Below are positions 14,640 to 39,048 of a stretch of DNA of 64,000 nt, piece by piece. The DNA is from an uncultured bacterium (GTDB taxonomy: Bacteria; Desulfobacterota; Binatia; UBA1149; CAITLU01): NCBI GenBank assembly GCA_903893315.1, contig CAITLU010000013.1, positions 155,026 to 219,025 on the forward strand, read 5' to 3'. Below the pieces are notes generated by a model that searched no databases, was not told the origin of the DNA, and worked only from the letters and a program-made list of their open reading frames with translations. The position numbers were made by a program, and so were the translations under genes. Every line of letters begins with the position of its first letter. Within the stretch, counting starts at the first letter, position 1.

Positions 14640-14824
14640 GGATGTCGAAGCCCGATGCGCTCGCCCTTGTTACCCCGCCGTAGCGCAAGCAAGGACGAAC
14701 CGCCGCTGAGCGTCGCGCACGCTATCACAGCAACCCCGCGGAACGCAGGCGTCCACTAGGTACGCCGCAGCGACCGAGTCGTCGCCCAACGCCGCAGATG
14801 GCCCCTTATGGACAGACTGCCTCC

Positions 14825-23830: not shown

Positions 23831-24907
23831 ATGGACCCGGACATCCGGCCCATGGCACGCGATTTGCTTCTCACCACTGCCAATGGCGAAACGGAGTGCA
23901 GAATGAGGCGAGCAAGTCCCAAGGTAATCGACGCGGCGTCCGCCTCGCCGACGCGGTCGGTTGCAGCGGGCGACGCGGCTGATGGCGGCGCCGCGACCGA
24001 TTCGCCGCTACCCGACAAGATCCCGCGTTTCCTGAGAACCGAGAGGTTGCTGCACTGGGCACTCGCCTTGCCGTTCCTCGGCTGCCTCTTCAGCGCTGTC
24101 GCGCTGGTCGTCGTCTACAACCCGGATCCGACGCGACCTTACCGCTACGTCTTCGCCTGGGCTCACCGCGGCTGTGGTGCCGCACTGTTCATCCTGCCGA
24201 GCCTCGTCCTGCTCACCAGCGGACGCCACATGCGAGTGCTGCTCTACAACATCCGCCAGGCGTGGGGCTGGAGACTCGACGACATCAAGTGGCTGATGCT
24301 GATGGGCCCGGCCACCGTCTTCAAGCGGATCGTGCTGCCCGACCAGGGCAAGTTCAACGCTGCCGAAAAACTGAATTTCATGATGGTGATGGTCTTTACC
24401 CCGCTTTTCATAGCCAGCGGCATCGCGATCTGGCTGCCCGACTACACTTCGCTCGACCCGTTCGCACCGTGGATGTTTCACTGCGCCCTGGCCGCAACCG
24501 GACTGCCGCTGATTCTCGGCCACATGTTCATGGCCATGATCAACCCCGAAACTCGCGTCGGGCTGAGCGGCATGATCACCGGCTCGGTGAGCCGAACCTG
24601 GGCCCAGCATCACTACGCGCGCTGGTATCGCGAGCAGTTTCCCCACCTGGTCGCTGCCGGCGGCGACCACCACAAATCCGGCGCTGAACCGGCAACTGCG
24701 GCGGCCGTGGATGGGCAAACGTCGCCGGAGGTCACATCGAATGAATTGGAGCAACCGCGCGATGCGACAATGCGGGCCGCTGAGAGTAGGGTGGCGTGCG
24801 AAGACGAATATGAATCGAGCGATCCCGGGGGGGACGAGGCTGGATGTGTCCGCGAGGCGTATTTCGCCAGCGATGCAGGTGCTTCGAGAGACGTGATGGC
24901 GCCCTGA
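23831..24907 (+). CDS. Di-heme b-type cytochrome, membrane subunit (FdnI/HydC Ni/Fe-hydrogenase b-cytochrome family)
   Basis: Four predicted transmembrane helices carry His in TM1 (LHWALALPF), TM2 (AWAHRGCG) and twice on TM4 (FHCALAATGLPLILGH). The NAAEKLNF motif is present. The exact start is uncertain. The C-terminal tail is acidic. Confidence 0.7.
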   Translation: MDPDIRPMARDLLLTTANGETECRMRRASPKVIDAASASPTRSVAAGDAADGGAATDSPLPDKIPRFLRTERLLHWALALPFLGCLFSAVALVVVYNPDPTRPYRYVFAWAHRGCGAALFILPSLVLLTSGRHMRVLLYNIRQAWGWRLDDIKWLMLMGPATVFKRIVLPDQGKFNAAEKLNFMMVMVFTPLFIASGIAIWLPDYTSLDPFAPWMFHCALAATGLPLILGHMFMAMINPETRVGLSGMITGSVSRTWAQHHYARWYREQFPHLVAAGGDHHKSGAEPATAAAVDGQTSPEVTSNELEQPRDATMRAAESRVACEDEYESSDPGGDEAGCVREAYFASDAGASRDVMAP

Positions 24908-24996
24908 TTGCATCACTGCCGCTACCCGCAATTTATTGCGCGCATCCGCGATCCTTTGCGCGATTTTGTGCGCGGATATCGGCAGTGAAAGTTCGG

Positions 24997-26499
24997 ATGG
25001 CCACCCTCATGGCGTTCACGAGCGCGTTGTTGGCCGCGGTGCCTGGGATCGTGCGTAACAAATGGAAAGGCGCCCGTCGAAGCTCCGCACGTCGGTTTCA
25101 CACGAATCTAACGACGACGTGTGGACGATGGCATTCGCCATGTGTTCTGCTGTGCCTGATGCTGCTCACTAGCACACCGATGGTCTTCCGTTCCACACCG
25201 GCACGGGCCTCCTGGGTCGAGTCGCTGGTCATGCCGGGCGAAGTCGCGGCCAAGCACGCCAAGATCGAGCACGAATGCACCAAGTGTCACGCACCGCTCG
25301 ACAAGGTGGCGCAGGAAAAACTTTGCCTGGACTGCCACAAGGAGGTGGCCGCGGATCTGCTCGAAAAGCGCGGGTTCCACGGCCAGTCACCCGATGTCAG
25401 CGGACGGCCGTGCAAGACTTGCCACGCCGAGCACAAGGGACGCACCGCCGACCTGGTGCATCTCGACCGCGACAAGTTCGACCACCGGCTGACCGATCAC
25501 CCGCTGGTCGGCGCCCATCTGCTGGCGAAATGCGACGGCTGCCACAAATCCGACAAGCGCTTTCGCGAAGCGCCTCCGCACTGCAGCGACTGTCACACCG
25601 CCAAAGATCCGCACGAAGGTACCCTCGGGCTCACCTGCAACAACTGCCACGATGAGTCAGCCTGGAAATCAGTGCGCTTCAACCACGACACCGTTGCCTT
25701 TCACCTGGAGGGCCGCCACCGTGAAGCGCACTGCGATGACTGTCACAAGACTCGCCTTTTCAAGTCCACCGCGACGGACTGCTTCTCGTGCCACGAGCGC
25801 AAGGACGATCACCACGGCAGCTTCGGCCGCGACTGTCAGTCCTGTCACACGACGCGCGGGTTTGCCGGCACGACGTTCGACCACGCCCGCAAGACGAAGT
25901 TTCCCCTGGTCGGAAAGCACGCGCACGTCGCGTGCGGGAAATGCCACAAAAACGGGCTTGCCGCAGCACTCACGCCGACCAACTGCCACGACTGCCACGA
26001 GTACGACGCGAGCCGTCACGGACTGTTCGGGAGCAAGTGCGAGAGTTGCCACACGCCGGACGACTGGCGGCGCACGATCTTCGACCACGACCGGGACACT
26101 CACTTTCCGTTGCGCGGCCACCACGTCGGTCGCCGCTGCACCGACTGTCACCGCTCGGACCTGCGCGTGGAACGCCCCGACCAGAAGTGTGTCGGCTGCC
26201 ATCGCGACGACGACGTCCACCACGGTCGCCAGGGCACCGACTGCAAACACTGCCACGACGAACGCGGCTGGAGTCGCGACGTGCTGATCGACCACAACGC
26301 AACCCGCTTTGCGCTGACGGGCGCGCATGCGCGGACAGCCTGCCTGCGCTGCCACCAGTCACCGCAGTTCAAGGAAGTCGCGCTGGAGTGCGTCGGCTGT
26401 CACAAGGAAGACGCCTCCGCGCACCGCTGCGAACGCGGCAGCGATTGCGCTCGCTGTCACGACACCTCCAACTTCCACACGATCAAGGCGGCCCACTGA
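24997..26499 (+). CDS. 18-heme c-type cytochrome made of six tandem tri-heme cytochrome c7-type domains
   Basis: There are 18 CxxCH motifs in a periodic pattern of about 75 aa: F-x-H-x(2-3)-H ... CxxCH ... CxxCH ... CxxCH, repeated six times. The start and signal peptide position are uncertain. Confidence 0.85.
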   Translation: MATLMAFTSALLAAVPGIVRNKWKGARRSSARRFHTNLTTTCGRWHSPCVLLCLMLLTSTPMVFRSTPARASWVESLVMPGEVAAKHAKIEHECTKCHAPLDKVAQEKLCLDCHKEVAADLLEKRGFHGQSPDVSGRPCKTCHAEHKGRTADLVHLDRDKFDHRLTDHPLVGAHLLAKCDGCHKSDKRFREAPPHCSDCHTAKDPHEGTLGLTCNNCHDESAWKSVRFNHDTVAFHLEGRHREAHCDDCHKTRLFKSTATDCFSCHERKDDHHGSFGRDCQSCHTTRGFAGTTFDHARKTKFPLVGKHAHVACGKCHKNGLAAALTPTNCHDCHEYDASRHGLFGSKCESCHTPDDWRRTIFDHDRDTHFPLRGHHVGRRCTDCHRSDLRVERPDQKCVGCHRDDDVHHGRQGTDCKHCHDERGWSRDVLIDHNATRFALTGAHARTACLRCHQSPQFKEVALECVGCHKEDASAHRCERGSDCARCHDTSNFHTIKAAH

Positions 26500-29183
26500 T
26501 GGCAACGCCGAAGCACATCGCTCTGTGGATCAGTGTTCTGCTTGCCGCTTTGTCGGCGGCGCCGCTGCATGCCGCCTGCACGGGCGGAGGAACTTCGGGC
26601 CTGGCCCCGCCGGCAGTTTCTTTCCTGCGCAGTTACCGCGCCCCGTTCGGTGCGCCGACTCGCATGGCGGTCGATGCTTCCGGAAAGATCTATGTGACCG
26701 ATCCCTCGCAGGGACAGGTCGTCGTGCGCGAAGCGAGCGGGCGGATCATCTCGCGTGCGACCGTCGCAACGCGCCCGGTGAGCGTCGCGGTCAACGCTGC
26801 CGGCCGCGTCTATGTTGGCGATTCAACTTCGGGCAGCGTCACCGCCTACGACTCAGAGTGGAACGCGGTGCTGCGATTCGGCCGGGGCGACGGCGAATTC
26901 CAGCAACCGAGCGATCTGTCGTTGGAAGCCGCCACCGGCGACGTCTACGTCGCCGACAGCGCGGCCCAACTGGTGAAGGTCTACAGCGCCGACGGCATTT
27001 TCCTGCGTTCATTCGGCGGGCAGGGTAACGGCGACGGCGAATTCAACTACCCGGTAGGCGTATTCGTCGACGCGCCTGCGCGCCGTGTGCTGGTAGCCGA
27101 CCAGCTCAACTATCGAATCCAGGTCTTCGATCTGAGCGGCACTTTCGTCAGTTGCTTCGGCGGGCACGGCAGCGGCGCGGGGAATTTCAACATGCCGCAG
27201 GGCGTGACGGTCGACGGCCTGGGCCGCGTGTACGTCGCCGATGCCGTCGAAGGACGCGTCCAGGTGCTCGACCGCAGCGGCGACTTCGTCGGCTTCATCG
27301 GTGACTTCGGCGACGACGCCGCGCAACTGCGCATTCCCATCGGCATGGTCATCGATCCGTCCAACAGGTTGTTCGTCGCCGCTTCCAACAACGCGCGTCT
27401 CGAAGTGTTCGGGCTCGACACCTTCGCCGATCCGGAAACCATCCTGCCCGCCGTGGTTCGGGTGGAGCCGGAAATGATCGAGCGGGCCACGCCGGGAAAC
27501 TCGATCGGCGCGTACCTGGAAGTGCCGGGATACATGCTCGACCGCATCGACGCCGCCAGCATTGTCGCGAACGGCGTTCCCGCGCTGCCGGGTACGAACT
27601 CGATCGGCGATGGGAATGGTGACGGCGTTGCCGACCTGCGCGTCGAGTTCGCTCCCACGGCTTTGCTGGCCACTCTTCCCGCCGGCGGCATCGGCGGCAT
27701 CGCCATCTCCGGAACTTTGTCCGGCATTCGCTTCGAGGGATCGACGACGGTTCGTGTGAGCACCTGCGGGCCCACCACGGTGTGCCCGCTCGGTGCAGCC
27801 GACCCTCAGTGCAACGAAGCCGTGTGCGACGCGGCAACCGGTTGCACCGTGCGGCCGAAAAACGACGGCGCCGGTTGCGAAGACGGCAGTGCCTGCACGA
27901 TGGACGACGTCTGCGCCGCTGGCATATGCACCGGTGCGACGCTGGCCTGCAACGACGTCAACGTCTGCACCGACGACGGCTGCGACACCGCTGCCGGTTG
28001 CGTCTTCGCCGCCAATACCGCGCCGTGCGACGACGCGAACGCCTGCACCACCGACGACACCTGTGCAGCACAAACCTGTTCGGGCGCGGCGATAACGTGC
28101 AACGACGGCAATGCCTGCACCGACGACGGCTGCGACACCGTGACCGGCTGCGTATTCGCCGCCAATAACGCACCGTGTGACGACGCGAGCATCTGCACCA
28201 CGGACGACACATGCGTGGACGGCGTCTGCACGGGAACGCGGATTTCCTGCAATGACGGCAACCTATGCACCGACGATGTCTGTGATCCGCTGGCCGGCTG
28301 CACGCACGCCGATAATCGCGGACCTTGTGACGACGGCGATCCGGGAACGGTAGCCGACACCTGCGACGGCAACGGTCTGTGCCGTGGCCAGACCGCGACA
28401 GGCCAATACGCGATCCTGCAGTGGCCCCCGGAATCGTCCGGGCGCCGGACGGTGACGATTGCGGCTCGTGGCCTGGTCGGCGGCAACGTGTGCGCCGAAA
28501 ACATCAGCATCGGCCGATCGGTCGAGGTGAACGGCGACGTTCTGGCCTGGTCGCCCGTCGATCGCGCGCTCAGCTTGCGTTCCGGCGTCTGGATCGACGG
28601 CAACGTCGTGAGCGGCGGCGGAGCGATTACCGGCCTCGAATTCGCAACCATCGGCGGCCTGGTCGATTCGGCCGGCGGCACCGCCGAATTCGAAGACTGC
28701 TTCGCTGCACGCTACCAAGCCGCGCAGCGCCGCGCCGAGTTCGTGACGTTGCTCCCCACGCCCGGAATGACCACGGGATCGCTGCGGCTCGGCGTGTTGG
28801 AAGAACGGCGAATTCCCGAGACGGGAGACGTCGGCAGCGGCCTGATCGTGATCGACGCCGACAGCATCAACCTGGCGACCTCGAGTCGGCTGACGATCGT
28901 CGGCGACGCATCAACCGAACAGGTCGTGGTCCGCGTTCGCGGCCGGCTTATCCTGGAACGCGGCGCGAGCATCGTCGTCGAAGGATTTCCGGCAGAGCGA
29001 CTGATCTTCGTGGTGGACGGAACAATCAACCTGCGGTTGCAGACGCGCGTCGATGGTTCGCTGTTCGGAGCCGGGACGGTCCGGATCGGCAGCGGCGGCG
29101 CGGTCAGCGGCGCGGTCATCGGCCGCACCGTCGACCTGGCTCATTCGGCAAGTATCAATCTGCAACCGTTCGTGGGGTGGTGA
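26499..29183 (+). CDS. Secreted NHL-repeat beta-propeller protein with cysteine-rich tandem repeats and a C-terminal beta-helix-like region
   Basis: The ATG overlaps the upstream TGA (ATGA). The signal peptide is MATPKHIALWISVLLAALSAAPLHAAC. NHL blades are present (YVADsxnxRVqVfD-like, about 6). Four repeats of about 51 aa follow, of the form CNDGNxCTDDGCDtxxGCvfaaNxxPCDDxxxCTTDDTC. A G/V/I-rich repetitive tail ends the protein. Confidence 0.8.
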   Translation: MATPKHIALWISVLLAALSAAPLHAACTGGGTSGLAPPAVSFLRSYRAPFGAPTRMAVDASGKIYVTDPSQGQVVVREASGRIISRATVATRPVSVAVNAAGRVYVGDSTSGSVTAYDSEWNAVLRFGRGDGEFQQPSDLSLEAATGDVYVADSAAQLVKVYSADGIFLRSFGGQGNGDGEFNYPVGVFVDAPARRVLVADQLNYRIQVFDLSGTFVSCFGGHGSGAGNFNMPQGVTVDGLGRVYVADAVEGRVQVLDRSGDFVGFIGDFGDDAAQLRIPIGMVIDPSNRLFVAASNNARLEVFGLDTFADPETILPAVVRVEPEMIERATPGNSIGAYLEVPGYMLDRIDAASIVANGVPALPGTNSIGDGNGDGVADLRVEFAPTALLATLPAGGIGGIAISGTLSGIRFEGSTTVRVSTCGPTTVCPLGAADPQCNEAVCDAATGCTVRPKNDGAGCEDGSACTMDDVCAAGICTGATLACNDVNVCTDDGCDTAAGCVFAANTAPCDDANACTTDDTCAAQTCSGAAITCNDGNACTDDGCDTVTGCVFAANNAPCDDASICTTDDTCVDGVCTGTRISCNDGNLCTDDVCDPLAGCTHADNRGPCDDGDPGTVADTCDGNGLCRGQTATGQYAILQWPPESSGRRTVTIAARGLVGGNVCAENISIGRSVEVNGDVLAWSPVDRALSLRSGVWIDGNVVSGGGAITGLEFATIGGLVDSAGGTAEFEDCFAARYQAAQRRAEFVTLLPTPGMTTGSLRLGVLEERRIPETGDVGSGLIVIDADSINLATSSRLTIVGDASTEQVVVRVRGRLILERGASIVVEGFPAERLIFVVDGTINLRLQTRVDGSLFGAGTVRIGSGGAVSGAVIGRTVDLAHSASINLQPFVGW
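27948..28390 (+). repeat. Intragenic tandem DNA repeat (about 150 bp unit, about 3 copies) encoding the cysteine-rich modules
   Basis: Units beginning tgcaacgacg...ctgcaccgacgacggctgcgacacc recur at 27948, 28098 and 28248, with decreasing identity. Confidence 0.6.
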
Positions 29184-29191
29184 AGACGTCG

Positions 29192-30580
29192 ATGGCATCG
29201 AAGCTGACAGCGTTCTCGTGGCTGCTCCTGACGTGGGCGGCGTACGCGTCGGGGCCGGCATACGCGCTCGACCCGCCGCACGACGTCAGTCGGTCGATCG
29301 ACTGCGCCAGTTGCCACATCTCGCACCATGCGGCGGGCGGCTCGATCACCCGGATCAGCGGTAACTCCAACCTGTGCGCGAGTTGCCACTCGGCCGGCGG
29401 CGTTGCGGCCACAAGCGCGCTCGCCAACAGCGACCAGGCGATCCCCGGCGTGAGCGGCACTTCACACCGCTGGGATTCCGGCGCGTCCGGCTGGGTGAAG
29501 AAGAATCCCGCCAACACCTCGACCGGAACGGTGCGCTCCACCGGCGTCTTCACCGGGCGCTATCGCAAGACCTACACGATCACCATCACCGCCGACGGTG
29601 TCGGCAACGCCGGTGGTGCCCAGTTCGCGTGGACCACGTCCACGCCGCAGCGCAATACGTACCTCGATGCGTTCCCAGCGCTGGCATACAACGGCAGCAG
29701 CGGCACGCAGGATTGGAGCGCAACCGCATGGCAGGAGAGCGGCGAGGCCGACGGCGTTGCCGCCGGCGTCGTGCGCGTCGTGACCAACGCCGCGTGCGCC
29801 GCCGGCAACTGCCTTCGCGTGGGCGGCGTAATCATCAACGGCATCAGCGTGGCGCGTGCGGCCGATCTTCACGCGGGCACGGCCGCCATGCTGACGTTCA
29901 GCTACCGCCGCCAGCTTGCTGCCTGTCCAAATACGAACACCGACGGGGTGGCGCTTCAGGTAAGCGCGGACGCTGTTTCGTGGACGACGCTGGCTACTTA
30001 CGTGCTGAACGCGTGCGATGCAGCGCAGGTGGAACAGGCCTTCGACGTCACGGCCTACATCGCGGCGACAACCGCGATTCGCTTCCTCGGTACCGGAACC
30101 AGCGCAGCCACCGACTTCATCTACGTCGACGACGTGCAGATTGAGAACCTCGTTGCCGGCGGCGGCGCCGCCGGCGTTTCGGCTGCCGGCACCGTAGCCC
30201 TCGACGAGGGCATCAGCGTGACGTTCGGCAACGGGACATCATCGCCCTACTTCAAGCTCGGCAGCCAGTGGACCGTCTACGCCAACCCGGACATCAACCA
30301 GCCGACGTCCTTCGCTCTTGCCGCGCGCCTGGCTAATGAAAAGGTCACCTGCTCCACCTGCCACAACGAGCACAGCCAGTTGGCTGAGCCGTTCGATCTG
30401 GCGGCGCCGGCCTACCCGTTGACGGGGAACGGCGGGGAGGGACGACACAACCAGCGTCTCGACAACGACATCAACCAGATATGCGTCGACTGCCACAGTG
30501 CGCGCAACGTCACCGCGGCGCAGAGTTCACATCCGGTGGGAATCGTCATCCCCGCCACCGGCTCGTACAAGAACCCATAG
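29192..30580 (+). CDS. Tetra-heme c-type cytochrome with a large non-heme central domain, secreted
   Basis: The signal peptide is MASKLTAFSWLLLTWAAYASGPAYA. Two CASCH motifs lie near the N-terminus, and CSTCH and CVDCH lie near the C-terminus. They flank about 300 aa of beta-rich sequence with no heme motif. Confidence 0.8.
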   Translation: MASKLTAFSWLLLTWAAYASGPAYALDPPHDVSRSIDCASCHISHHAAGGSITRISGNSNLCASCHSAGGVAATSALANSDQAIPGVSGTSHRWDSGASGWVKKNPANTSTGTVRSTGVFTGRYRKTYTITITADGVGNAGGAQFAWTTSTPQRNTYLDAFPALAYNGSSGTQDWSATAWQESGEADGVAAGVVRVVTNAACAAGNCLRVGGVIINGISVARAADLHAGTAAMLTFSYRRQLAACPNTNTDGVALQVSADAVSWTTLATYVLNACDAAQVEQAFDVTAYIAATTAIRFLGTGTSAATDFIYVDDVQIENLVAGGGAAGVSAAGTVALDEGISVTFGNGTSSPYFKLGSQWTVYANPDINQPTSFALAARLANEKVTCSTCHNEHSQLAEPFDLAAPAYPLTGNGGEGRHNQRLDNDINQICVDCHSARNVTAAQSSHPVGIVIPATGSYKNP

Positions 30581-30588
30581 GATCCACC

Positions 30589-31971
30589 ATGACGCGGCTC
30601 AACCGATTTCTCAGCGCGGCCTGCATTCTCCTGGCGTCATCGCTCGCCGGAATCGCCGCGGCCCAGACCCCGGCGCCGTTGCCTGCCGCTGCCTTTCCTC
30701 TGCCGCTCGACAAGAAGATGAACATGGTGCGCTGCACCACGTGTCACGACGCGCACTTCCAGAGCGGCGGCAACGGCATGCTGCTGCGCAGCGGCGACAT
30801 CAACGCTCTGTGCACCGATTGTCACACTCTGGCCGACACCGCTTCTCCGGCCGCGCACCTCGATCCCTCCACCGGCGTGCTGTGGCCCGGCCCGCAGTAC
30901 GGCACACTTTTCCCGCGCGTAACCGACACGTCACAGCGCGGCTTCTGCAGCAACTGTCACCAGGCGCACGGCTGGCCCGACGAGGCCAACGCGGGGCAGG
31001 ACTACCCATCGCTGCTGGTCAATCGCGAAGAGAACCTATGTTTCGCCTGTCACGACGGAAGCCCCGCGGCCAAGAACGTCATTGCCTCGTTCGCCAAGAG
31101 TTACCGCCACCCCACTACCGACTACAGCAACCGTCACACCACCACCGAGGACGGCGTAGCGGCAAACTTCGGCACGTCCAATCGTCACGCCGAATGCACG
31201 GACTGTCACGACGCCCACGTCGCCCGCGCCGACGCTACCGCACCGGTTGCGCCGGCGGCTTGGAACAGCATCCGCGGAGTCAGTCGAATCGCGGTCACCA
31301 ACGGCGCCGCCGGTACCGCGCCGGCGTACACATACCGCGGACCCACCGACACAACCGCGCCCGTGGCCGAATATCAGCTGTGTTTCAAGTGTCATTCGTC
31401 GTGGACCACCCGGCCCGCGGGCCAGTCGGACCTGGCCGTGCGTTTCAACACCAACAACCCCTCCTTCCACCCGGTGGAAGGTCAGGGCAAGAACCTCAAC
31501 ATCAACGTCAACTCCTTCGTGCCAGGCTGGAATGCGCTGCGCACGACATACTGCAGCGACTGTCACGCAGACAACGACGCGAGCGTGCGTGGCCCGCACG
31601 GCTCTCAGTACCGCTACCTGCTCAAACGGCCCTATGTGGCGAGCGGCGCGTCGCGCACGACCGCCGCAACCGAGGCGTGCTTCGACTGCCACACCTTTGC
31701 CACCTACGCTAGCACCGTGTCCAGCGACACCGTGCTTGGCTACAGCCGCTTCAACCGGCCCGGTTTTGAAGAAGGCCACTCTTTCCACGTCGTCAAAAAG
31801 GGGGCTCCCTGCTACGCCTGCCACGACTCGCACGCTTCCAGCACCAAGCCGCATCTGATCGTCACCGGCCGGGTTCCGGGTCTGAACAGCTACACCGAAA
31901 CGGCAACCGGCGGCAGTTGCTCCCCTACGTGCCATGGCACACAAACCTACAGGATAAACTATGCGCGCTGA
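30589..31971 (+). CDS. Deca-heme c-type cytochrome (paired-CXXCH, Geobacter-type), secreted
   Basis: The signal peptide is MTRLNRFLSAACILLASSLAGIAAA. There are nine CxxCH motifs plus one CxxxCH (CSPTCH). Confidence 0.85.
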   Translation: MTRLNRFLSAACILLASSLAGIAAAQTPAPLPAAAFPLPLDKKMNMVRCTTCHDAHFQSGGNGMLLRSGDINALCTDCHTLADTASPAAHLDPSTGVLWPGPQYGTLFPRVTDTSQRGFCSNCHQAHGWPDEANAGQDYPSLLVNREENLCFACHDGSPAAKNVIASFAKSYRHPTTDYSNRHTTTEDGVAANFGTSNRHAECTDCHDAHVARADATAPVAPAAWNSIRGVSRIAVTNGAAGTAPAYTYRGPTDTTAPVAEYQLCFKCHSSWTTRPAGQSDLAVRFNTNNPSFHPVEGQGKNLNINVNSFVPGWNALRTTYCSDCHADNDASVRGPHGSQYRYLLKRPYVASGASRTTAATEACFDCHTFATYASTVSSDTVLGYSRFNRPGFEEGHSFHVVKKGAPCYACHDSHASSTKPHLIVTGRVPGLNSYTETATGGSCSPTCHGTQTYRINYAR

Positions 31972-32394
31972 TCCACGCACCGCGGTCTCACTCGCCACGT
32001 CGAATACGTGCGCCGCGCGTTTACGCGCTCCGTGCGCCGCCGGCCCTGAGCACCTTTTGGCGAATCGTCGAGCATCCGAAGACTACCGTGCGATCCTGCA
32101 AGTACGGCGCGTTAGCGCGCAAACAATTGCTCGGTTCGGGGCTCGCGCATCAGGACGGTTCGTTGACTTCGCGTCGGCTGCGGCCGGATTGGGTTGGCCC
32201 GCGATACCTGAAATCACCAGGGCACCGGAAATGCGCGCCGACGATGCTGCGTCCTGGAACAGGCAGAATGCGGCGAAAAACAACGCGAAGACTCCATGAA
32301 CGCTTCGGACAGGCTCTCGTCCGCCATCGTCTCGATTTTGCCGAAAGCATCCGGCAGCGGGTTGGCTCGCGTGTTGCTTATCAAACGACCTCTC

Positions 32395-33486
32395 ATGAAT
32401 GTGGCGTTTCGCACAAGGTGGACGAGGGACGCACGTTTTGCGGTGAACACTGCGGCGCTCGCGTGGTGCATGGGCATGGTCGCGGGCTGCGCGGCACAGC
32501 AAAAGCCGCAGGACATGTTCTGGCCCGACCCTCCGGACAAGCCGCGCATCAGGTTCGTGCGCAACCTCCAATCCAAGAGCGATCTCGGCGCCCCGGCCTT
32601 GCTCGAAACGCTGGTCGGACGCGACAAGGAGCAGGCCCTTTACCAGCCGATGGGCCTTGCGCTTTCCGATGACTGCCAGCGCCTCTACGTAGCCGATCGG
32701 GTCTGGAACTCCGTTTTCGTTTTCGATTTCCAATCCAAGGCCGTGCGCACCATCGGAGGCGACGAGCGTTATCCGCTGACAATGCCGGTCGGCGTAGCCC
32801 TGGACGGGGACGAGAACGTCTACGTCGCCGATACCGGCACACGCACGGTCCGCGTCTACGACAAGACCGGAAAGTTTCTGCGCGGCATCGGCAAGGACCA
32901 GCTCGTGCGGCCGACGGGAATCACCATCGACGCAACGCGCGGGCGGCTCTACGTCGTCGACACCGGACAGAACGACACTCCCGAAGCGCACCGGGTGAAA
33001 GTATTCGACCTCGCGGGCGGCCTGATACGAGAGATCGGACGGCGCGGCGAAAGCGACGGCGAATTCAATTTCCCGACCTTCGCCAACCTCGACGCGCAAG
33101 GCCGGCTCTACGTCGTCGACTCCGTGAACAGCCGTATCCAGGTCTTCGATCCGGATGGGAAGTTCTTGTGGAAGTTCGGCAGTTCCGGCGACCACATCGG
33201 GAATTTCGCGCGCCCCAAGGGCGTGGCGGTCGACAGCTTCGGCAACATCTACGTGGTCGATTCGCGCTGGGGCAACGTGCAGATCTTCAACCAGCAGGGG
33301 CAGCTGCTGATGCTTTTCGCCGGAGTCGGAGAGTACCCCGGACTGATGATCAACCCCGGCGCCATCGTCATCGACCGCCACAATCGAATCTACGTCTCCG
33401 ACACGCTGGGGAGACGCGTGAGCATCTACGAACTCATCGGCACATCTGCCGAAGACAGCCTCGAGTCACGGGGCACAGCGCCATAA
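32395..33486 (+). CDS. NHL-repeat beta-propeller lipoprotein
   Basis: The lipobox is MVAGC. Six NHL-like blades are present (LYVADrvwNsVfVFD, VYVADTGTRTVRVYD, LYVVDTGQ..., LYVVDSVNSRIQVFD, IYVVDSRWGNVQIF, IYVSDTLGRRVSIYE). Confidence 0.8.
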   Translation: MNVAFRTRWTRDARFAVNTAALAWCMGMVAGCAAQQKPQDMFWPDPPDKPRIRFVRNLQSKSDLGAPALLETLVGRDKEQALYQPMGLALSDDCQRLYVADRVWNSVFVFDFQSKAVRTIGGDERYPLTMPVGVALDGDENVYVADTGTRTVRVYDKTGKFLRGIGKDQLVRPTGITIDATRGRLYVVDTGQNDTPEAHRVKVFDLAGGLIREIGRRGESDGEFNFPTFANLDAQGRLYVVDSVNSRIQVFDPDGKFLWKFGSSGDHIGNFARPKGVAVDSFGNIYVVDSRWGNVQIFNQQGQLLMLFAGVGEYPGLMINPGAIVIDRHNRIYVSDTLGRRVSIYELIGTSAEDSLESRGTAP

Positions 33487-33604
33487 GCCGCTGGGGGAGG
33501 GGCGTATTCCGGCGAATGATGCGCGAAGTCGGACATCGAGAAATACAAACGAAGCTAGAGAGCGTGAAACGAACAGACGGAAAGGAACGATAGGAGGTTC
33601 CATC

Positions 33605-34255
33605 ATGAAAAGAGGAAGATCATTATTAATCGCCGCATCCTTGCTGGTGCCAACCATGGCGTCGGCGGGGACCATCGCCAACACGAAGCACGACTTGAGC
33701 GCGACCTCGACCGCGGTGATCAAGTCGGGGACTCAAACCGACACCTGCGTGTTCTGCCACGTATCGCACAGCAGCGCTCCGGGCGTGGCGCGGCCGTTGT
33801 GGAGCCACACGATGACCACCCAGAACCTGACCTGGGCGCCGACCACGACGGTGCGCGGGACGGTACTGCCGACCGCGATCACCAGCGCAGCGCTGACCGG
33901 CTCACGTTCATGCATGAGTTGTCACGACGGGACAGTCGCGCTCGGCGATCTGCTCAACGGAACCGGCGGCACCGTCAGCGGAACCAACGTCACGGCCGGC
34001 AAGCTGACCGGTGGCATCAACCTGCTCAACCCGGCATCGATGCAGAGCAACCATCCGATCGGTGTTGCCAAGCCGGCGGCGGCCACCGGCTTCACGGCCT
34101 TCAAGACCGTCGCGGCCAGCAGCCCCGTCAACTACGATTCGTCCGGTTTCGTACAGTGCGACTCGTGCCACAACCCGCATGACAACACCTTCGTGCCGTT
34201 CCTGAGGATCAGTCCGGCGGGCGGTGCGATCTGCACCTCCTGCCACGACATCTGA
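33605..34255 (+). CDS. Tetra-heme c-type cytochrome, small secreted (216 aa)
   Basis: A strong RBS (taggagg) sits 8 nt upstream of ATG 33605. The signal peptide is MKRGRSLLIAASLLVPTMASA. CVFCH, CMSCH, CDSCH and CTSCH are present. The N-terminal motif TKHDLS...CxxCHxSH...PLW is shared with the 39045 cytochrome. Confidence 0.85.
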   Translation: MKRGRSLLIAASLLVPTMASAGTIANTKHDLSATSTAVIKSGTQTDTCVFCHVSHSSAPGVARPLWSHTMTTQNLTWAPTTTVRGTVLPTAITSAALTGSRSCMSCHDGTVALGDLLNGTGGTVSGTNVTAGKLTGGINLLNPASMQSNHPIGVAKPAAATGFTAFKTVAASSPVNYDSSGFVQCDSCHNPHDNTFVPFLRISPAGGAICTSCHDI

Positions 34256-34352
34256 CCACGGTGCCAATGCGGCGGAGAATGCCCTCTAGTGATTGGGATT
34301 CCCCGCCGCAACGGTCTAGTAGTTGACCCCTGGAGTTCGGACCCGGGGGGGC

Positions 34353-34682
34353 ATGGTGACGAGTAGAAACTTCTGCGGAATCCTTTCGCTCGTCGTTCTG
34401 TGCGTGTCGCTCGTTGCAGCGCCGGGATCGGCAACCACGCTCGGCGACATCATCTACTCGCGCAAAGCCGGCCCGGGAGATTGGGCCCCGGCCTACTTCC
34501 CGCACTGGGTCCATCGCATCAAGTACAAGTGCTACGCGTGCCACGACACGCTGTTCCCCATGCGGCGCGGCGGTAATCCGACAATGGCGGGGATGTCGAC
34601 CGGCGCTTCGTGCGGCGCGTGTCACAACGGCAAGACTGCCTTCGGGCTGGACACCTGCCAGCGATGCCACGTTTCGCAATGA
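34353..34682 (+). CDS. Tri-heme cytochrome c7 (PpcA-like periplasmic carrier)
   Basis: A signal peptide is followed by FPHWVHRIKYKCYACH...CGACHNGKTAFGLDTCQRCH. The three CxxCH motifs have c7 spacing. The mature protein is about 80 aa. Confidence 0.85.
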   Translation: MVTSRNFCGILSLVVLCVSLVAAPGSATTLGDIIYSRKAGPGDWAPAYFPHWVHRIKYKCYACHDTLFPMRRGGNPTMAGMSTGASCGACHNGKTAFGLDTCQRCHVSQ

Positions 34683-35938
34683 GGCACCGCGCGACGATCT
34701 GCATGATCGTCGCGCTCGTCGCGGCTGCCGGAGGCTGCAGCCGCGAAACGCGCTACCGCGCGCTCGACGTTTTGTTCGAGGGCGTCCCGCCACCCGGCCA
34801 GGTCGTCAGCAACGAACCGGTCACGCATCGTCCTCGTCGTTCGCCTCCACCTCCTCCGATTCCGCCTCCCGTCGCGTTCACGCCGCTGCCGCCCAACGCA
34901 GGCCTCGCGTCGCTGCAAACCTGGGACGACGTCGTGCGACTGCTGCCCAAAGACCAGGCCGGCAATCCGGACTGGACTGCGGCGGTCGACGAAAAAATGA
35001 TCGCCCCGCGTTCCGTACTGGACCCCGACTCCGCGGAGTCGGAAGCGATCACTCTTGACGCCCTCGATGCTTCGTCGGTCGCTCCGGATGTCGAACTCGC
35101 CGCCAAGTCGGATCCGGCTTTCGATGTCTCCTTCTCACACCGGAAGCACGGGACCTGGCTGAGCTGCGGGAACTGCCACCCTGCCCCCTTCGAGAAGAAA
35201 GCCGGGCAGACGCCGATGACCCCGGCCAGCGTGCACGCACAAGAGTACTGCGCTGCCTGTCACGGCAAGGTCGCGTTCGACATCGGACCCAATTGCCTGT
35301 CGTGCCACCTTCGCACCATGCCGCGCGACGCGGCCGGACAGGTAGATTGGAATCGCGCACTGGATGAGCAGCGCATCGCGCCGCGCCCTGGACCGGGATC
35401 TAAAACCGTCGATCAGGAGGTTCTCAAACTCGATATAGAAATGACGCCGCCGGCCCAGCCCGCGTTTGCGTCGGTATTTTCACACGGCACACACACGCGG
35501 TTGATAGCTTGCGCCAGTTGCCATCCGAGTCCCTACTCGGCCAAGGTTCGCACGGCGATGACCGACACCGCCGAACTGCATTCGTCCCGCTATTGCGGTT
35601 CCTGCCACGGCACGGTGTCGTTTGGAATCACCGGATTCTGTCAGCGCTGCCACCCGGCTCTCGAAAAAGCGCGTCAGCACCAGGAAACTCTGGACCTCGA
35701 TGTGGCGGTGACGCCCAAGGCGCAGACCGGCGGCGCCACGACGTTCTCGCACAAGCAGCACCGCTGGGTGGAGTGTGCCACCTGTCACAGCAACCTCTTC
35801 ACCAACACGCCGGGGGCAACCACCATGCCGAAGGCCGATATCTACGGCGGCAAGTACTGCGCCCCCTGCCACGGCAAGGTGACCGACGATCTCACCGTCA
35901 GTTGCCGGCGCTGTCATTCGGGCGGTGACGCCCGATGA
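34679..35938 (+). CDS. Nona-heme lipoprotein cytochrome (three tandem c7-type domains behind a Pro-rich linker)
   Basis: The ATGA overlap is with the c7 gene. The lipobox-like sequence is VALVAAAGGCS, followed by a PPPPPIPPP linker. The module FSH(x)xH...CxxCH...YCxxCHG...CxxCH is repeated three times. Confidence 0.85.
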   Translation: MRHRATICMIVALVAAAGGCSRETRYRALDVLFEGVPPPGQVVSNEPVTHRPRRSPPPPPIPPPVAFTPLPPNAGLASLQTWDDVVRLLPKDQAGNPDWTAAVDEKMIAPRSVLDPDSAESEAITLDALDASSVAPDVELAAKSDPAFDVSFSHRKHGTWLSCGNCHPAPFEKKAGQTPMTPASVHAQEYCAACHGKVAFDIGPNCLSCHLRTMPRDAAGQVDWNRALDEQRIAPRPGPGSKTVDQEVLKLDIEMTPPAQPAFASVFSHGTHTRLIACASCHPSPYSAKVRTAMTDTAELHSSRYCGSCHGTVSFGITGFCQRCHPALEKARQHQETLDLDVAVTPKAQTGGATTFSHKQHRWVECATCHSNLFTNTPGATTMPKADIYGGKYCAPCHGKVTDDLTVSCRRCHSGGDAR

Positions 35939-35963
35939 CCGGCAGCACACTTGCGGCATCGTG

Positions 35964-37979
35964 ATGAAGCGCGCCGCACGGCCAGCGATCGCGTGCGGCG
36001 TTCTCGCGTGCATGGTGCTCACCATCACGCCTGCGGCCGAGGCCGGACTGAACTGGGGGCTGGGTCGCTGGGAAGGCGACACCACGCTTCTCGTGAACTG
36101 GGAAACCCAGCACGACAAACGGACTCAGGACCGTTACGACACGCTTCTCTTCGAAGAGCGCCTGCGTCTGCGCAACACCGGCGCCTTCATCTTCGATCCG
36201 CGCTTGCTGACGCTCAATCTCAGCGGATCGTTCGGAGCGCCTCAGGAAATGGCGCTGGGGCACACCGACACGTCGCTGCGGGTGGGCAACGGAACTCTGT
36301 TCGACTATGCCTTCGAGGGCCTGGTCCTGGCGGATACGGCTTACCCGACCACTCTGTTCGCCACCCGCAGCCAGACCATGCTTACGCAGGGCTTCGGCGG
36401 TCGCTCTGATCTGACCTTCCAGAGCTTCGGCGGCACCTTCGATCTGCACGAAAACAATTTCCTCGAGGCCCGCGGGTGGCGCGGATTGACCGCGACGCTG
36501 GACGCCCGCGAGGAGTCGCTCCTCGAAAATTCGTCGTATTTCGGCAGTCCGTTCAAACGCGACGAGACCCGACAGATAGTCAACGCGCAGGCGCACCGCT
36601 CCGGCGAGAACTCGGACCTCGATCTGCACTACGAACTCAACTCCGTAAGCGACCCGCTCAACCCGTCGAACGTATTCGACAGCCACACATTTCGTGCGAC
36701 TCACAGTCTCGACTTCGGTCCCACGCTCAACCGGCGCCTCGACTCGGGACTCTATTCCTTCATCCGCAGCGGCGCATCGAACGGCAGTTACGTGTCGGCG
36801 AGCGAGGCTCTGCACGTCGACCACCATCGCGACTTCTCGACCAACTATCGCTACGACTTTTCCCAGAGCGATTCGGAATCCGGCACCACCACTACCAATA
36901 CCGCCAACGCCACGCTGCTGAGGCGGTTCTATCGCAACCTCTCGACCACGCTCGGCGCGCGCGGATCACTGCAGAATTTCCCGAACGGCGACAAGTACCT
37001 TTACGGAGGCGAGGCCGGCGCCGACTACCGGCGCGCGATTCCCGGCCAGGGGCAACTGTTCGCGGACACCCACCTCGGTTACGAGGTTGACAACAACAAC
37101 TTCACCTCGTCGTTCGTCGATGAACCCGACGAAAGGCAGACGGTTCCAATCGATGTCGGCACCGGCGCCGGGTTCACCCTGACTCATCCATTCGTGGTCA
37201 TCGGATCGATCGTGGTGGTCGACCTCGGTCCCGACGGCAACTCGCGCTTCGACACCATCGTCAACCGGGACTACCTCGTCGTCGCGGAAGGCAGCCGCAC
37301 CCGGATCGTGCCGTTGCCCGACAGCCCCGTGCTTCGCGCCGGCGATCAGTTGTCGGTGAGCTACACCTACACCATCGCGCCCAGTCTCGAGTATTCAACC
37401 TTCGACACGAGCATACGCACCGGTCTGGAATTCCCGTGGCTTTCGCTATCCTACGAACACATGATGAGCGATCAGACGCGTCTGTCCGGGACTTCCGCCC
37501 CGCAATTCCTGATCGATCAGAACGCGGACCGGTTTCAACTCGAGCTGAGGAGCCGGTGGAAACGCCTGCTCGCGCAATCGGCGGTCGATTACGAAATTCT
37601 CAAATCGTCGATCGTCGACTCCAACGGATTGCGCTTCGGCCAACTTCTCGTCTACCAAATCAACGCCGGCCTGGTCGCGGAGTTGACCGCTGACGAGAAC
37701 TTCGTCGACTACCCGAAAGAAAATCGCAGTTCCGAGTCCTACCTGGCGCGGGCTTCGATCGACTGGACGGCCTTCGAAGGGCTTTCCGCTTCGCCTTTCA
37801 TCGACTACCGTAGTTTTCACGACTCGACCGTCATGAGCGACGTTGTCGTCGAGGCCGGAATGCGCCTGCACTGGACCTATCGAAGCGTGGACATCTTCCC
37901 AACTGTCACCTGGACCGACTATCGCAACAGGATGGATGGCGTTCATGCCGAACTGCGCATCACCCGACGTTTCTTCTGA
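35964..37979 (+). CDS. Outer-membrane beta-barrel protein (putative porin of a porin-cytochrome conduit)
   Basis: The signal peptide is MKRAARPAIACGVLACMVLTITPAAEA. The protein is about 670 aa with Y/T/S/G/N-rich alternating beta-strand texture. The C-terminal ...ELRITRRFF ends in an aromatic Phe, the OMP sorting signature. Confidence 0.7.
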   Translation: MKRAARPAIACGVLACMVLTITPAAEAGLNWGLGRWEGDTTLLVNWETQHDKRTQDRYDTLLFEERLRLRNTGAFIFDPRLLTLNLSGSFGAPQEMALGHTDTSLRVGNGTLFDYAFEGLVLADTAYPTTLFATRSQTMLTQGFGGRSDLTFQSFGGTFDLHENNFLEARGWRGLTATLDAREESLLENSSYFGSPFKRDETRQIVNAQAHRSGENSDLDLHYELNSVSDPLNPSNVFDSHTFRATHSLDFGPTLNRRLDSGLYSFIRSGASNGSYVSASEALHVDHHRDFSTNYRYDFSQSDSESGTTTTNTANATLLRRFYRNLSTTLGARGSLQNFPNGDKYLYGGEAGADYRRAIPGQGQLFADTHLGYEVDNNNFTSSFVDEPDERQTVPIDVGTGAGFTLTHPFVVIGSIVVVDLGPDGNSRFDTIVNRDYLVVAEGSRTRIVPLPDSPVLRAGDQLSVSYTYTIAPSLEYSTFDTSIRTGLEFPWLSLSYEHMMSDQTRLSGTSAPQFLIDQNADRFQLELRSRWKRLLAQSAVDYEILKSSIVDSNGLRFGQLLVYQINAGLVAELTADENFVDYPKENRSSESYLARASIDWTAFEGLSASPFIDYRSFHDSTVMSDVVVEAGMRLHWTYRSVDIFPTVTWTDYRNRMDGVHAELRITRRFF

Positions 37980-38001
37980 TCCGCCTTGCGGCACCCGGCC
38001 G

Positions 38002-39048
38002 GTGGCTGCGGCCGGCCGGCGCTGGGCGCGCGGACTGGCGTTGGCGGCGCCGGCCCTGCTCGCTGCGGCCGCGGCTGCCTGCTCGTCGGGTTGGCCGACC
38101 CACGGCCAGCCCGCGGAGCCCGCGCGGATGGTGTGGCCCGAAGCGCCGGACGCGCCTCGCATAGAACTGGTTTCCACGTTCAGCGCCGGCTCCGATCTCG
38201 GCATCGAACTCTCCATATGGTCGCGTATTGCCAACGTCATTTCAGGCGGCGGCGAAACGCGGATGGTACGCCCCAGCGGCGTGAGTGCCGCCGGCGGACG
38301 CATCGCGGTGGCCGATCCGGGAGCCGGACTCGTTCACCTCTACGATCCGGCCCGCCGCCGCGCTCTGGCGCTGCGCGAGTGTGGTGACACGGCGCTCGCA
38401 GAGCCGGTCAGCGCAATTCTGCTCGGCGAGCGCCTGTACGTGGCCGACGCGAGCGCGGCGCGCATTTTCGTATTCGATCTCGACGGCGCCTGCATAGCCG
38501 GCTGGCCGCTTGAAGAGGGATCGCGTCCGGCCGGGTTGGCGGCCGACCCCGCGCGGTCGAGAATCTACGTGGCGGAAGCCGCATTACATCGCGTCGTCGT
38601 CTACGATCCACAGGGCAACAGAGTTCTGGAAATCGGCCGCCGCGGCGCCGCGCCCGGCCAGTTCAATTATCCAACTTGGCTGGCAGTAGACGACGCCGGT
38701 AACATATACGTAACGGACGCGCTCAACTTCCGGGTGCAGATCTTCGATCCGGAGGGCCGGCCGACCGGCGTCTTCGGTGAGCAAGGCGACGCCTCCGGAG
38801 CGCTGTCGCGACCAAAGGGCATAGGTATCGATCGTCATGGGCACATCTATCTGGTCGATGCTCTTTTCGACGCCGTGCAGATGTTCGATCGCGAGGGCCA
38901 CTACCTGATGGTCTTCGGCGGCAGCGGCCGCGAGCCGGGGCTTTTCTGGCTTCCTTCCGGCCTCGCCGTCGATGGCGACCGCATCTACGTTTCGGACTCG
39001 TACAATCAGCGGGTGCAGGTGTTCCGCTTCCTGGCAGACGAGTCATGA
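38002..39048 (+). CDS. NHL-repeat beta-propeller protein (probable lipoprotein)
   Basis: The GTG start gives MAAAGRRWARGLALAAPALLAAAAAAC-SSG. The NHL blades are LYVADASAARIFVFD, IYVAEAALHRVVVYD, IYVTDALNFRVQIFD, IYLVDALFDAVQMFD and IYVSDSYNQRVQVF. Confidence 0.75.
   Translation: MAAAGRRWARGLALAAPALLAAAAAACSSGWPTHGQPAEPARMVWPEAPDAPRIELVSTFSAGSDLGIELSIWSRIANVISGGGETRMVRPSGVSAAGGRIAVADPGAGLVHLYDPARRRALALRECGDTALAEPVSAILLGERLYVADASAARIFVFDLDGACIAGWPLEEGSRPAGLAADPARSRIYVAEAALHRVVVYDPQGNRVLEIGRRGAAPGQFNYPTWLAVDDAGNIYVTDALNFRVQIFDPEGRPTGVFGEQGDASGALSRPKGIGIDRHGHIYLVDALFDAVQMFDREGHYLMVFGGSGREPGLFWLPSGLAVDGDRIYVSDSYNQRVQVFRFLADES

What the first reader, a model, noticed from the sequence alone, without database searches (positions are those of the whole stretch)
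29192..30580. Split tetra-heme cytochrome: two CxxCH near each terminus separated by about 300 aa of non-heme, beta-rich domain
The heme motifs are CASCH at about residues 38 and 63, and CSTCH and CVDCH at about residues 400-440. The middle lacks heme motifs. It is rich in T/S/G/A/N with hydrophobic alternation, resembling a carbohydrate-binding or jelly-roll module. It could be a substrate or mineral-binding domain sandwiched by electron-transfer hemes.
Basis: seen in the sequence. Interest (0 to 1): 0.5.

Follow-up and report, generated by a model that had tools for sequence, protein, structure and literature searches.

The report
Split cytochrome carrying inserted jelly-roll module
This gene encodes the four-haem front piece of a 14-haem electron-wire protein that has been split into two genes and has gained a mobile adhesion or sugar-binding-type domain, which is a modest new twist on known extracellular electron-transfer cytochromes.

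Summary
Window 29192-30580 (+) is one 462-aa ORF with a signal peptide and CxxCH at residues 38, 62, 387 and 431. Between them lie 320 haem-free, ordered, all-beta residues.

It is probably not a self-contained tetrahaem protein. It is the N-terminal part of a widespread, uncharacterised 14-haem cytochrome family that almost always sits beside an NHL beta-propeller gene. In most relatives a single 700-800-aa protein continues directly into the homologue of the next gene, 30589-31971. Here the gene is split, and the second half has its own signal peptide.

The haem-free middle has two parts:
- A family-wide ~100-aa beta domain with no clear solved relative.
- Nested in one of its loops, a ~170-aa mobile jelly-roll module (aa ~151-321). 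It is related by fold, and below threshold by sequence, to reelin subrepeat B, MAM, gingipain adhesin domains and CBMs. It also occurs in over 1000 other protein clusters; the ten checked include subtilases, a beta-helix protein and a T9SS-tailed protein.

The same module type entered this cytochrome family repeatedly. The surrounding cluster encodes an OmcE-type nanowire subunit, a probable beta-barrel and NHL lipoproteins.

Most likely role (inferred): a binding or targeting head on a two-subunit 14-haem wire. I rate it a new variant of a known kind, of moderate interest.

The parts
29192..30580 (+). Target gene: 462-aa c-type cytochrome, here called 'subunit A' of a split 14-haem cytochrome
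   Evidence: ORF and translation; 19 orthologues at 61-68% identity
29192..29266 (+). Signal peptide (aa 1-25), with predicted cleavage AYA|LDPPHD
   Evidence: By inspection. The mature N-terminus DPPHD is nearly invariant across the family
29303..29389 (+). Haem motifs 1 and 2 (CASCH at aa 38-42 and aa 62-66), forming a doubled-CXXCH unit
   Evidence: Paired_CXXCH_1 above cut-off
29474..29641 (+). First half of the family-wide small beta domain (aa ~95-150), just after the invariant SHRWD motif (H92)
   Evidence: Alignments A1 and A2. AF2 pLDDT is 85-94 here and 94-98 in the uninserted relative P0022
29642..30154 (+). Inserted mobile jelly-roll module (aa ~151-321), reelin-B/MAM/CBM-like
30155..30289 (+). 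Second half of the small beta domain (aa ~322-366)
30350..30496 (+). Haem motifs 3 and 4 (CSTCH at aa 387-391, CVDCH at aa 431-435)
   Evidence: invariant in 106 family members
30578..30591 (+). Split junction: TAG stop, an 8-nt spacer (an AGGA overlaps the stop), then the ATG of the next gene
   Evidence: In fused relatives the reading frame continues here...YK.P-..LPLD..V.C.SCH
30589..31971 (+). 'Subunit B': 460 aa with its own signal peptide, 9 CxxCH plus 1 CSPTCH. Homologous to the C-terminal two-thirds of the fused relatives
26499..29183 (+). NHL beta-propeller protein with C-terminal Cys-rich Dicty_CTDC repeats and DUF7305. A conserved partner gene of the 14-haem family
   Evidence: Pfam. 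An NHL1-like gene lies within a few kb of the family member, usually directly adjacent, in most of the 79 loci
23831..26499 (+). Cytochrome b (FdnI/Ni_hydr_CYTB-like, 23831-24907) and an 18-CxxCH c7-type polymer cytochrome (24844-26499)
32296..40754 (+). OmcE-type nanowire cluster: NHL lipoprotein (32296-33486), OmcE homologue (33605-34255), triheme c7 (about 34353-34682), 9-haem 3x c7 (34610-35938), 684-aa probable outer-membrane beta-barrel (35925-37979), NHL lipoprotein (37843-39048) and an 11+1-haem cytochrome (39045-40754)
   Evidence: The composition matches the minimal omcE cluster described in bioRxiv 10.1101/2025.10.22.684050. The beta-barrel assignment is inferred from size, position and lack of any Pfam hit

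Best explanation
Gene 29192-30580 encodes the exported N-terminal four-haem part of an uncharacterised, NHL-propeller-associated 14-haem c-type cytochrome. In this Binatia-like genome the ancestral ~715-aa gene has been cut into two adjacent genes: A with 4 haems, and B (30589-31971) with 10 haem motifs and a new signal peptide.

The haem-free middle of A has two parts. One is a small beta domain that all family members have. The other is a ~170-aa mobile jelly-roll module of the reelin-B/MAM/CBM superfamily, nested in one loop of that beta domain.

Inferred mechanism. A and B reassemble after export into one 14-haem chain, probably with at least one histidine from A ligating a haem bound to B. 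The jelly-roll projects from the haem 1-4 end as a binding or targeting head. It would hold that end of the wire against a partner such as a polysaccharide or EPS matrix, a mineral-associated polymer, or another protein. The whole would work within the cluster's extracellular electron-transfer machinery (cytochrome b, c7-type periplasmic cytochromes, beta-barrel, NHL lipoproteins, OmcE-type filament subunit).

Shown: the anatomy, the homology, the split, the nested insertion and its recurrence. Inferred: A-B assembly, extracellular location and a binding role.
For: Haems. Four CxxCH motifs, far beyond chance, with a doubled-CXXCH domain above cut-off.

Family and split.
- 147 database hits and 208 loci among GTDB species representatives.
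- Fused 700-810-aa relatives align over all of A except aa ~151-321, then continue straight into the homologue of gene B. The nine fused relatives counted carry 13 CxxCH, and eight of them also a C-terminal CX3-4CH; A+B here carry 4+9+1.
- The fused P0020 occupies the same syntenic slot.
- Related MAGs named Binatia or Deltaproteobacteria show every state: unsplit without insert (L001), unsplit with insert (L006, L009, L010, L030) and split with insert (window, L003, L005, L007, L008, L011). Split forms without insert also exist (P0022, P0025; taxon not determined).

Module.
- phmmer finds 1297 cluster representatives, often with 2-5 copies per protein. Hosts include subtilases, beta-helix proteins and T9SS cargo.

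Recurrent capture.
- A second copy with a ~75-aa Pro/Thr linker sits on gene B in L003, L005, L007 and L008.
- Two copies occur in unsplit gammaproteobacterial proteins, one at the same loop.
- Module identities are 27-36% between these lineages, against up to 54% to non-cytochrome proteins.

Histidine budget. The A part has 6 family-conserved free His for 4 haems. The B part has 9 for 10 motifs.

Context. The gene at 33605-34255 is an OmcE homologue (E 5.5e-22 to 7TFS). The cluster composition matches published minimal omcE clusters.
Against: - There are no experimental data for any family member.
- Location is unproven. The protein has only a Sec-type signal, with no lipobox or recognised sorting signal.
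- AF2 was run without haems, and haem regions have low pLDDT. Haem-to-module geometry could not be measured.
- The ligand of the module is unknown. Its invariant residues (D159, W175, W180, E182, R222, D313) do not identify a substrate.
- MAM and reelin-type modules often mediate protein-protein contacts rather than glycan or mineral binding.
- The closest relative (L006) is unsplit, so the split may be functionally neutral.
- The histidine argument assumes bis-His ligation of all 14 haems.
Confidence: 0.6

Rival explanations
1. One reading: an autonomous tetrahaem cytochrome. Two haem pairs flank a substrate- or mineral-binding domain and pass electrons directly to whatever that domain binds.
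For: The gene product as encoded has exactly four CxxCH motifs and its own signal peptide and stop. About 19 orthologues keep this 461-aa form. Split forms also exist without the insert (P0022, P0025).
Against: Most relatives, including the closest one (L006), are single polypeptides continuing into gene B. Gene B follows after 8 nt. The histidine budget suggests the two parts share ligands. The binding-type module is a late insertion, not part of the family's design.
Confidence: 0.15
2. The jelly-roll is a protein-protein docking or oligomerisation module (MAM/reelin-like). It would attach the 14-haem wire to a cluster partner such as an NHL propeller, the beta-barrel or the OmcE-type filament, rather than to an external substrate.
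For: The best fold matches include reelin subrepeat B, MAM domains and the gingipain adhesin domain, which act in protein recognition. The family is tightly linked to NHL propeller genes. The cluster encodes a filament subunit and a probable barrel.
Against: Most family members work with the same partners without the module. Module relatives sit in very diverse secreted proteins such as proteases and beta-helix proteins, which fits a generic matrix or glycan-binding role better. CBMs are equally good fold matches.
Confidence: 0.2
3. The split and insertion are neutral or degenerative: a decaying locus or an assembly or annotation artefact with no functional meaning.
For: The locus is highly plastic, with five architectural states in one clade. 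The closest relative is unsplit.
Against: All haem motifs and ligand histidines are intact. Codon-position GC is gene-like, with GC3 of 0.80-0.86 in all three parts. The split adds a complete signal peptide that is similar by eye to the one in L003-type loci. The insert is 58-74% conserved across more than 10 MAGs and folds confidently.
Confidence: 0.05

Closest known systems
OcwA of Thermincola potens (PDB 6QVM, deposited as 'multiheme cytochrome cf')
   Same: It is the best solved sequence relative of the family profile (E 2.4e-14). From my own knowledge, it is a cell-surface multihaem terminal reductase.
   Different: The match covers haem motifs 3-4 of A and the B part only. By my recollection OcwA has nine haems, and nothing in it aligned to the small beta domain or the jelly-roll. 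It is not split and has no NHL partner that I know of.
MtrC/OmcA/UndA outer-surface decahaem cytochromes
   Same: These are multihaem chains interrupted by haem-free beta domains and are thought to face extracellular substrates (my own knowledge). There are weak hits to the Mtrc-MtrF_II-IV Pfam domain.
NHL-propeller-associated outer-membrane cytochrome clusters: Uet of Ca. Tenderia and Gallionella, and DFE_448-451 / DFE_461-465 of Desulfovibrio ferrophilus
   Same: These clusters combine long multihaem cytochromes with doubled CXXCH motifs, NHL propellers, c7-type trihaem proteins and a large beta-barrel. DFE_461 has 14 haem sites.
   Different: No UetB-like PPIase or UetF-like cupredoxin was found among the cluster genes scanned. 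None of those reports describes a jelly-roll insert or a split.
OmcE cytochrome-nanowire clusters (PDB 7TFS, 9YUQ)
   Same: The window's neighbouring gene 33605-34255 is an OmcE homologue. Genes 32296-40754 match the published minimal cluster of 2 MHCs, 2 propeller lipoproteins, OmcE and a large barrel.
   Different: The target itself shares only motif-level similarity with OmcE. The target, NHL1, the 18-haem cytochrome and cytochrome b form an extra upstream module that is not part of the described minimal cluster.
Reelin subrepeat B, MAM domains, gingipain cleaved-adhesin domain, CBM families 4/16/22/61, and 'choice-of-anchor J'
   Different: No curated model reaches its cut-off. The module has its own signature (D..F....Y.GN.G...W...W.E ... 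R..DL ... IRF ... Y.DNV.I). Its ligand is unknown.
PgcA of Geobacter sulfurreducens (haem domains tethered by Pro-Thr repeats; PMC11520253, title and abstract seen, repeat detail from my own knowledge)
   Same: In L003-type relatives a Pro/Thr-rich linker tethers a second jelly-roll to the haem part of subunit B. This suggests a flexible extracellular tether.
   Different: The window's own genes lack the PT linker. PgcA is a trihaem protein with no jelly-roll.

Membership tests
c-type multihaem cytochrome | Multiple CxxCH haem-attachment motifs in an exported protein | tested here: met
   Four motifs; 0 of 20000 shuffles reach four; signal peptide seen by inspection
c-type multihaem cytochrome | Conserved distal ligands (His) sufficient for the haems | tested here: met
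   H30, H45, H92, H394, H419 and H447 are >=90% conserved in 106 sequences
Doubled CXXCH domain (Pfam PF09699 / TIGR01905) | Score above the curated cut-off | tested here: met
   34.7 vs 20.6 bits and 33.8 vs 25.2 bits, for aa 30-68
Uncurated NHL-associated 14-haem cytochrome family (this report) | Mature N-terminus DPPHD, haems 1-2, SHRWD, small beta domain, haems 3-4, SHPVG, then ten more haem motifs | tested here: met
   All features are present across A+B, but on two polypeptides
Uncurated NHL-associated 14-haem cytochrome family (this report) | Adjacent NHL beta-propeller gene | tested here: met
   NHL1 (26499-29183) lies directly upstream. An NHL1-like gene lies within a few kb, usually adjacent, in most of the 79 loci
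MtrC/OmcA/MtrF outer-membrane decahaem family | Score above cut-off for PF22113 or TIGR03507; two pentahaem domains plus two split-barrel domains | tested here: not met
   PF22113 scores 21.1 vs 30 bits. The target gave no TIGR03507 hit. No fold match to any MtrC-type chain
DmsE/MtrA periplasmic decahaem family (TIGR03508) | Score above the 192-bit cut-off | tested here: not met
   33 bits for the target and 53-66 bits for fused relatives
OmcE nanowire subunit | Full-length homology to the ~220-aa tetrahaem OmcE (7TFS) | tested here: not met
   Only short motif-level matches to the window's OmcE homologue. The neighbour 33605-34255 does meet it
Reelin_subrepeat-B (PF21471) / InhA-like MAM (PF20773) | Pfam score above the gathering cut-off | tested here: not met
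   The window's insert gives no Pfam hit. 11 of 25 and 5 of 25 module relatives hit at sub-threshold or marginal E-values
Reelin_subrepeat-B / MAM / CBM jelly-roll fold | Beta-sandwich jelly-roll topology | tested here: met
   [not shown]
choice-of-anchor J domain (NF038128) | Score above the 30-bit cut-off | tested here: not met
   16-18.8 bits for the insert; 11 of 25 relatives hit at best E 1.5e-5
Carbohydrate-binding module | Demonstrated glycan binding, or a conserved sugar-binding cleft of a defined CBM family | not testable with these tools
   Only fold-level resemblance. No CBM family model matched
Uet (undecahaem electron transfer) cluster | Homologues of UetA-J, including the UetB PPIase and UetF cupredoxin | tested here: inconclusive
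   The window has analogous parts: a barrel candidate, c7 trihaems, NHL genes and an 11+1-haem protein. No PPIase or cupredoxin was found among the cluster genes scanned.

The most novel reading that the evidence does not exclude
The 4-haem subunit with its jelly-roll head could be a dedicated contact or adhesin end-piece of an extracellular wire. In this reading it is a two-subunit 14-haem conduit stitched together by cross-subunit His-haem ligation, as in OmcS/OmcE filaments. It would dock the cell's OmcE-type nanowire system onto a solid or polymeric partner. The repeated capture of the same module type by this cytochrome family in different phyla would then mark a general, previously unrecognised way in which bacteria target electron wires to surfaces.
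Probability: 0.12. Interest if true: 0.75.

Novelty: new variant of a known kind. Interest (0 to 1): 0.45.

Why it matters
How the far end of an extracellular multihaem wire finds and holds its partner is still poorly understood. The recent OmcE bundle paper explicitly asks what sits at the filament tip and contacts minerals.

This finding offers a natural series of variants: the same 14-haem cytochrome with 0, 1 or 2 adhesion-type modules, either split or unsplit. These are ready-made constructs for testing whether binding modules tune electron transfer to solids or polymers.

It also defines three things that no curated family covers. The first is a widespread NHL-linked 14-haem cytochrome family that includes cultured Geothrix paludis. 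The second is a small beta domain with no solved relative. The third is a jelly-roll module with more than 1000 members.

Finally, it places an OmcE-type nanowire cluster in Binatota, a phylum not listed among the five reported so far.

Tried and rejected
- A word-indexed protein search with the insert alone returned only two hits. The exhaustive phmmer search was needed to find the module family.
- The AFDB50 fold library was unavailable.
- Literature searches for the osc cluster, for '14-haem' or 'tetradecahaem' and for Binatia plus multihaem produced nothing specific to this family. A 2026 peat EET preprint did not mention NHL or jelly-roll modules.
- I rejected the idea that the target is an OmcE paralogue, because similarity is only at motif level.
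- I rejected a mis-joined gene or disordered linker.
- I rejected a sequencing frameshift as the cause of the split, because the junction carries a complete new signal peptide.

Full report
**1. Observation**

Window 29192-30580 (+) is a single ORF of 462 codons. It starts at an ATG, ends at TAG 30578-30580, and has a Sec-type signal peptide by inspection. CxxCH motifs sit at residues 38, 62, 387 and 431, with none in between. Shuffling the protein 20000 times never gave four motifs; the mean was 0.007. Residues 30-68 pass the curated cut-offs of the doubled-CXXCH domain. Codon-position GC is gene-like in all three thirds of the gene.

**2. What the protein belongs to**

A search of 5.8 billion proteins returned about 19 orthologues of ~461 aa at 61-68% identity. 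The few that carry source names are from Candidatus Binatia MAGs. It also returned well over 100 longer proteins of 700-810 aa from Thermoanaerobaculia, Holophagaceae, Verrucomicrobiota, Gammaproteobacteria, Rhodocyclaceae and others.

Alignment shows three things:
- The long proteins match the target's N-terminal ~150 residues and its C-terminal ~140 residues.
- They lack residues ~151-321.
- They run on, exactly where the target stops (...YKNP), into a sequence homologous to the mature product of the next window gene, 30589-31971 (LPLD..V.C.SCH...).

The nine fused proteins counted have 13 CxxCH, and eight of them also a C-terminal CX3-4CH. The window pair has 4 + 9 + 1. A fused member (P0020) occupies the same slot in a syntenic cluster.

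A scan of one genome per GTDB species found 208 loci. They include the cultured Geothrix paludis SG195. An NHL beta-propeller gene lies next to the cytochrome gene in most of the 79 loci fetched.

No Pfam or NCBIfam model covers the family beyond generic haem motifs. The best solved sequence relative is OcwA of Thermincola (6QVM), which matches only haem motifs 3-4 of A and the B part.

**3. The split**

In the window the stop is followed by 8 nt and an ATG. The new ORF begins with a full signal peptide. This signal peptide resembles, by eye, the one at the same junction in L003, L005, L007 and L008. The split is therefore an evolved feature and not a frameshift.

Several architectural states are seen:
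- Unsplit without insert: L001.
- Unsplit with insert: L006 (887 aa, the closest relative of the window), L009, L010 and L030.
- Split with insert and a second module on gene B: L003, L005, L007 and L008.
- Split with insert and no second module: the window.
- Split without insert: P0022 and P0025 (their taxon was not determined).

The L-numbered loci come from MAGs named Binatia or Deltaproteobacteria.

Counting family-conserved histidines outside the motifs gives six in the A part for four haems, and nine in the B part for ten motifs. If all haems are bis-His ligated, at least one histidine of A must ligate a haem carried by B. This is an inference. It argues that A and B function as one unit.

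**4. The haem-free middle is two things**

- reelin subrepeat B
- the gingipain K1 cleaved-adhesin domain
- MAM domains
- many CBMs

An exhaustive phmmer search of 1.84 billion cluster representatives found 1297 proteins with this module, 699 of them at E <= 1e-10. Among the best 150 hits, more than half carry 2-5 copies, in proteins of up to ~3800 aa.

Of the ten host proteins checked, four are Peptidase_S8 subtilases, one is a beta-helix protein and one carries a T9SS sorting tail. Module members hit Reelin_subrepeat-B, InhA-like MAM, F5/8 type C and choice-of-anchor J only at sub-threshold levels.

The module has its own signature, with near-invariant D159, W175, W180, E182, R222 and D313 in target numbering.

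**5. Recurrent capture**

- In L003-type loci, gene B starts with a second copy of the module, followed by a ~75-residue Pro/Thr linker.
- In gammaproteobacterial MAGs (L012, L013) an unsplit 1100-1190-aa version has two copies. One is at the same loop of the small beta domain. The other follows a later haem motif (CTDCH/CMDCH) in the region homologous to gene B.
- The two gammaproteobacterial copies are 74% identical to each other but only 27-31% identical to the window's insert. The second Binatia copy is 34-36% identical to the first.
- Some non-cytochrome proteins reach 44-54% identity to the window's insert.

This pattern fits repeated domain acquisition and duplication better than a single ancient insertion. 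The cytochrome flanks are 44-68% identical between these lineages.

**6. Context**

Upstream of the target:
- a cytochrome b (FdnI-like)
- an 18-CxxCH c7-type polymer
- an NHL propeller with Cys-rich Dicty_CTDC repeats and DUF7305

Downstream:
- an NHL lipoprotein
- a 216-aa tetrahaem protein
- a trihaem c7
- a 9-haem 3x c7 protein
- a 684-aa protein with no Pfam hit, ending in ...RRFF (a probable outer-membrane barrel, inferred)
- another NHL lipoprotein
- an 11+1-haem cytochrome

The 216-aa protein is a full-length homologue of the OmcE nanowire subunit (7TFS, E 5.5e-22; 9YUQ, E 3.8e-23). [quoted passage not shown] It lists five phyla, and Binatota is not among them. Window 32296-40754 fits that description.

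Similar NHL-linked cytochrome clusters have been described as Uet in Ca. Tenderia and Gallionella, and as outer-membrane cytochrome clusters in Desulfovibrio ferrophilus, where one cytochrome has 14 haem sites.

**7. Mechanism**

Shown: the gene is the four-haem front part of a split 14-haem cytochrome, and it carries a nested, mobile jelly-roll module.

Inferred:
- A and B reassemble into one haem chain after export.
- The complex acts at or beyond the outer membrane together with the NHL propeller and the nanowire machinery.
- The module is a binding or targeting head.

The arguments for an extracytoplasmic, surface-exposed role are indirect:
- The kinds of proteins that carry the module.
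- The PT linker on the paralogous copy.
- Two conserved Cys pairs in the insert, seen in the alignment.
- The cluster context.

What the module binds cannot be decided here. It could be glycan or EPS, mineral-associated organics, or a partner protein. I give the protein-docking alternative 0.2 and the autonomous-tetrahaem reading 0.15.

**8. Novelty and score**

Multihaem cytochromes with haem-free beta domains or tethers are known (MtrC/OmcA, PgcA), and NHL-linked cytochrome clusters have been reported. The new elements are:
- The definition of this 14-haem family.
- Its gene split, with the inference of shared haem ligands.
- The nested jelly-roll module and its repeated capture.
- The association with an OmcE-type cluster in Binatota.

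This is a new variant of a known kind. It is interesting to specialists in extracellular electron transfer but not startling. I score interest at 0.45.

Noticed in passing
window 33605-34255 (+), with 32296-40754 as a cluster: A full-length homologue of the OmcE cytochrome-nanowire subunit (7TFS E 5.5e-22; 9YUQ E 3.8e-23) lies in a cluster that matches the published minimal omcE cluster. The genome appears to be Binatota, a phylum not among the five reported to carry OmcE homologues.
   Followed up: partly
L003 11394-13439 (also L005, L007, L008): The orthologue of the downstream gene carries a second copy of the jelly-roll module at its N-terminus. A ~75-aa Pro/Thr-rich linker follows before the haem part. 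The window's gene 30589-31971 lacks both.
   Followed up: yes
L012 9617-13180 and L013 9878-13216: Gammaproteobacterial MAGs encode an unsplit 1100-1190-aa version of the cytochrome with two jelly-roll modules that are 74% identical to each other. One sits in the same loop as in the window. The other follows a later haem motif (CTDCH/CMDCH) in the part homologous to gene B.
   Followed up: yes
[not shown]
   Followed up: partly
window 26499-29183 (+): The NHL propeller upstream of the target has a long C-terminal extension with Cys-rich Dicty_CTDC-type repeats and a DUF7305/bactofilin-like region. An NHL gene accompanies the 14-haem cytochrome in most loci examined, but the extension is seen almost only in the Binatia-type loci.
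   Followed up: partly
window 23831-26499 (+): An FdnI-like cytochrome b gene overlaps the start of an 18-CxxCH c7-type polymer cytochrome. This could be an inner-membrane quinol-linked entry or exit point for the cluster.
   Followed up: no
window 34323-34682 and 34610-35938 (+): A PpcA-like trihaem c7 gene is followed by a 9-haem protein made of three c7 units. The second protein's likely start (MRHRATICMIVALVAAAGGC, around 34679) looks like a lipoprotein signal.
   Followed up: no
window 12927-16351 (-): A secretin gene (Secretin and Secretin_N domains) lies next to a fused shikimate kinase/3-dehydroquinate synthase gene. This is the usual pilQ-aroK-aroB arrangement and is probably unrelated to the cytochrome cluster.
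   Followed up: no
P0121 (133 aa): A short protein 44% identical to the insert was found alone on a 13.6-kb metagenome contig. It may be a stand-alone module or a truncated gene call.
   Followed up: no
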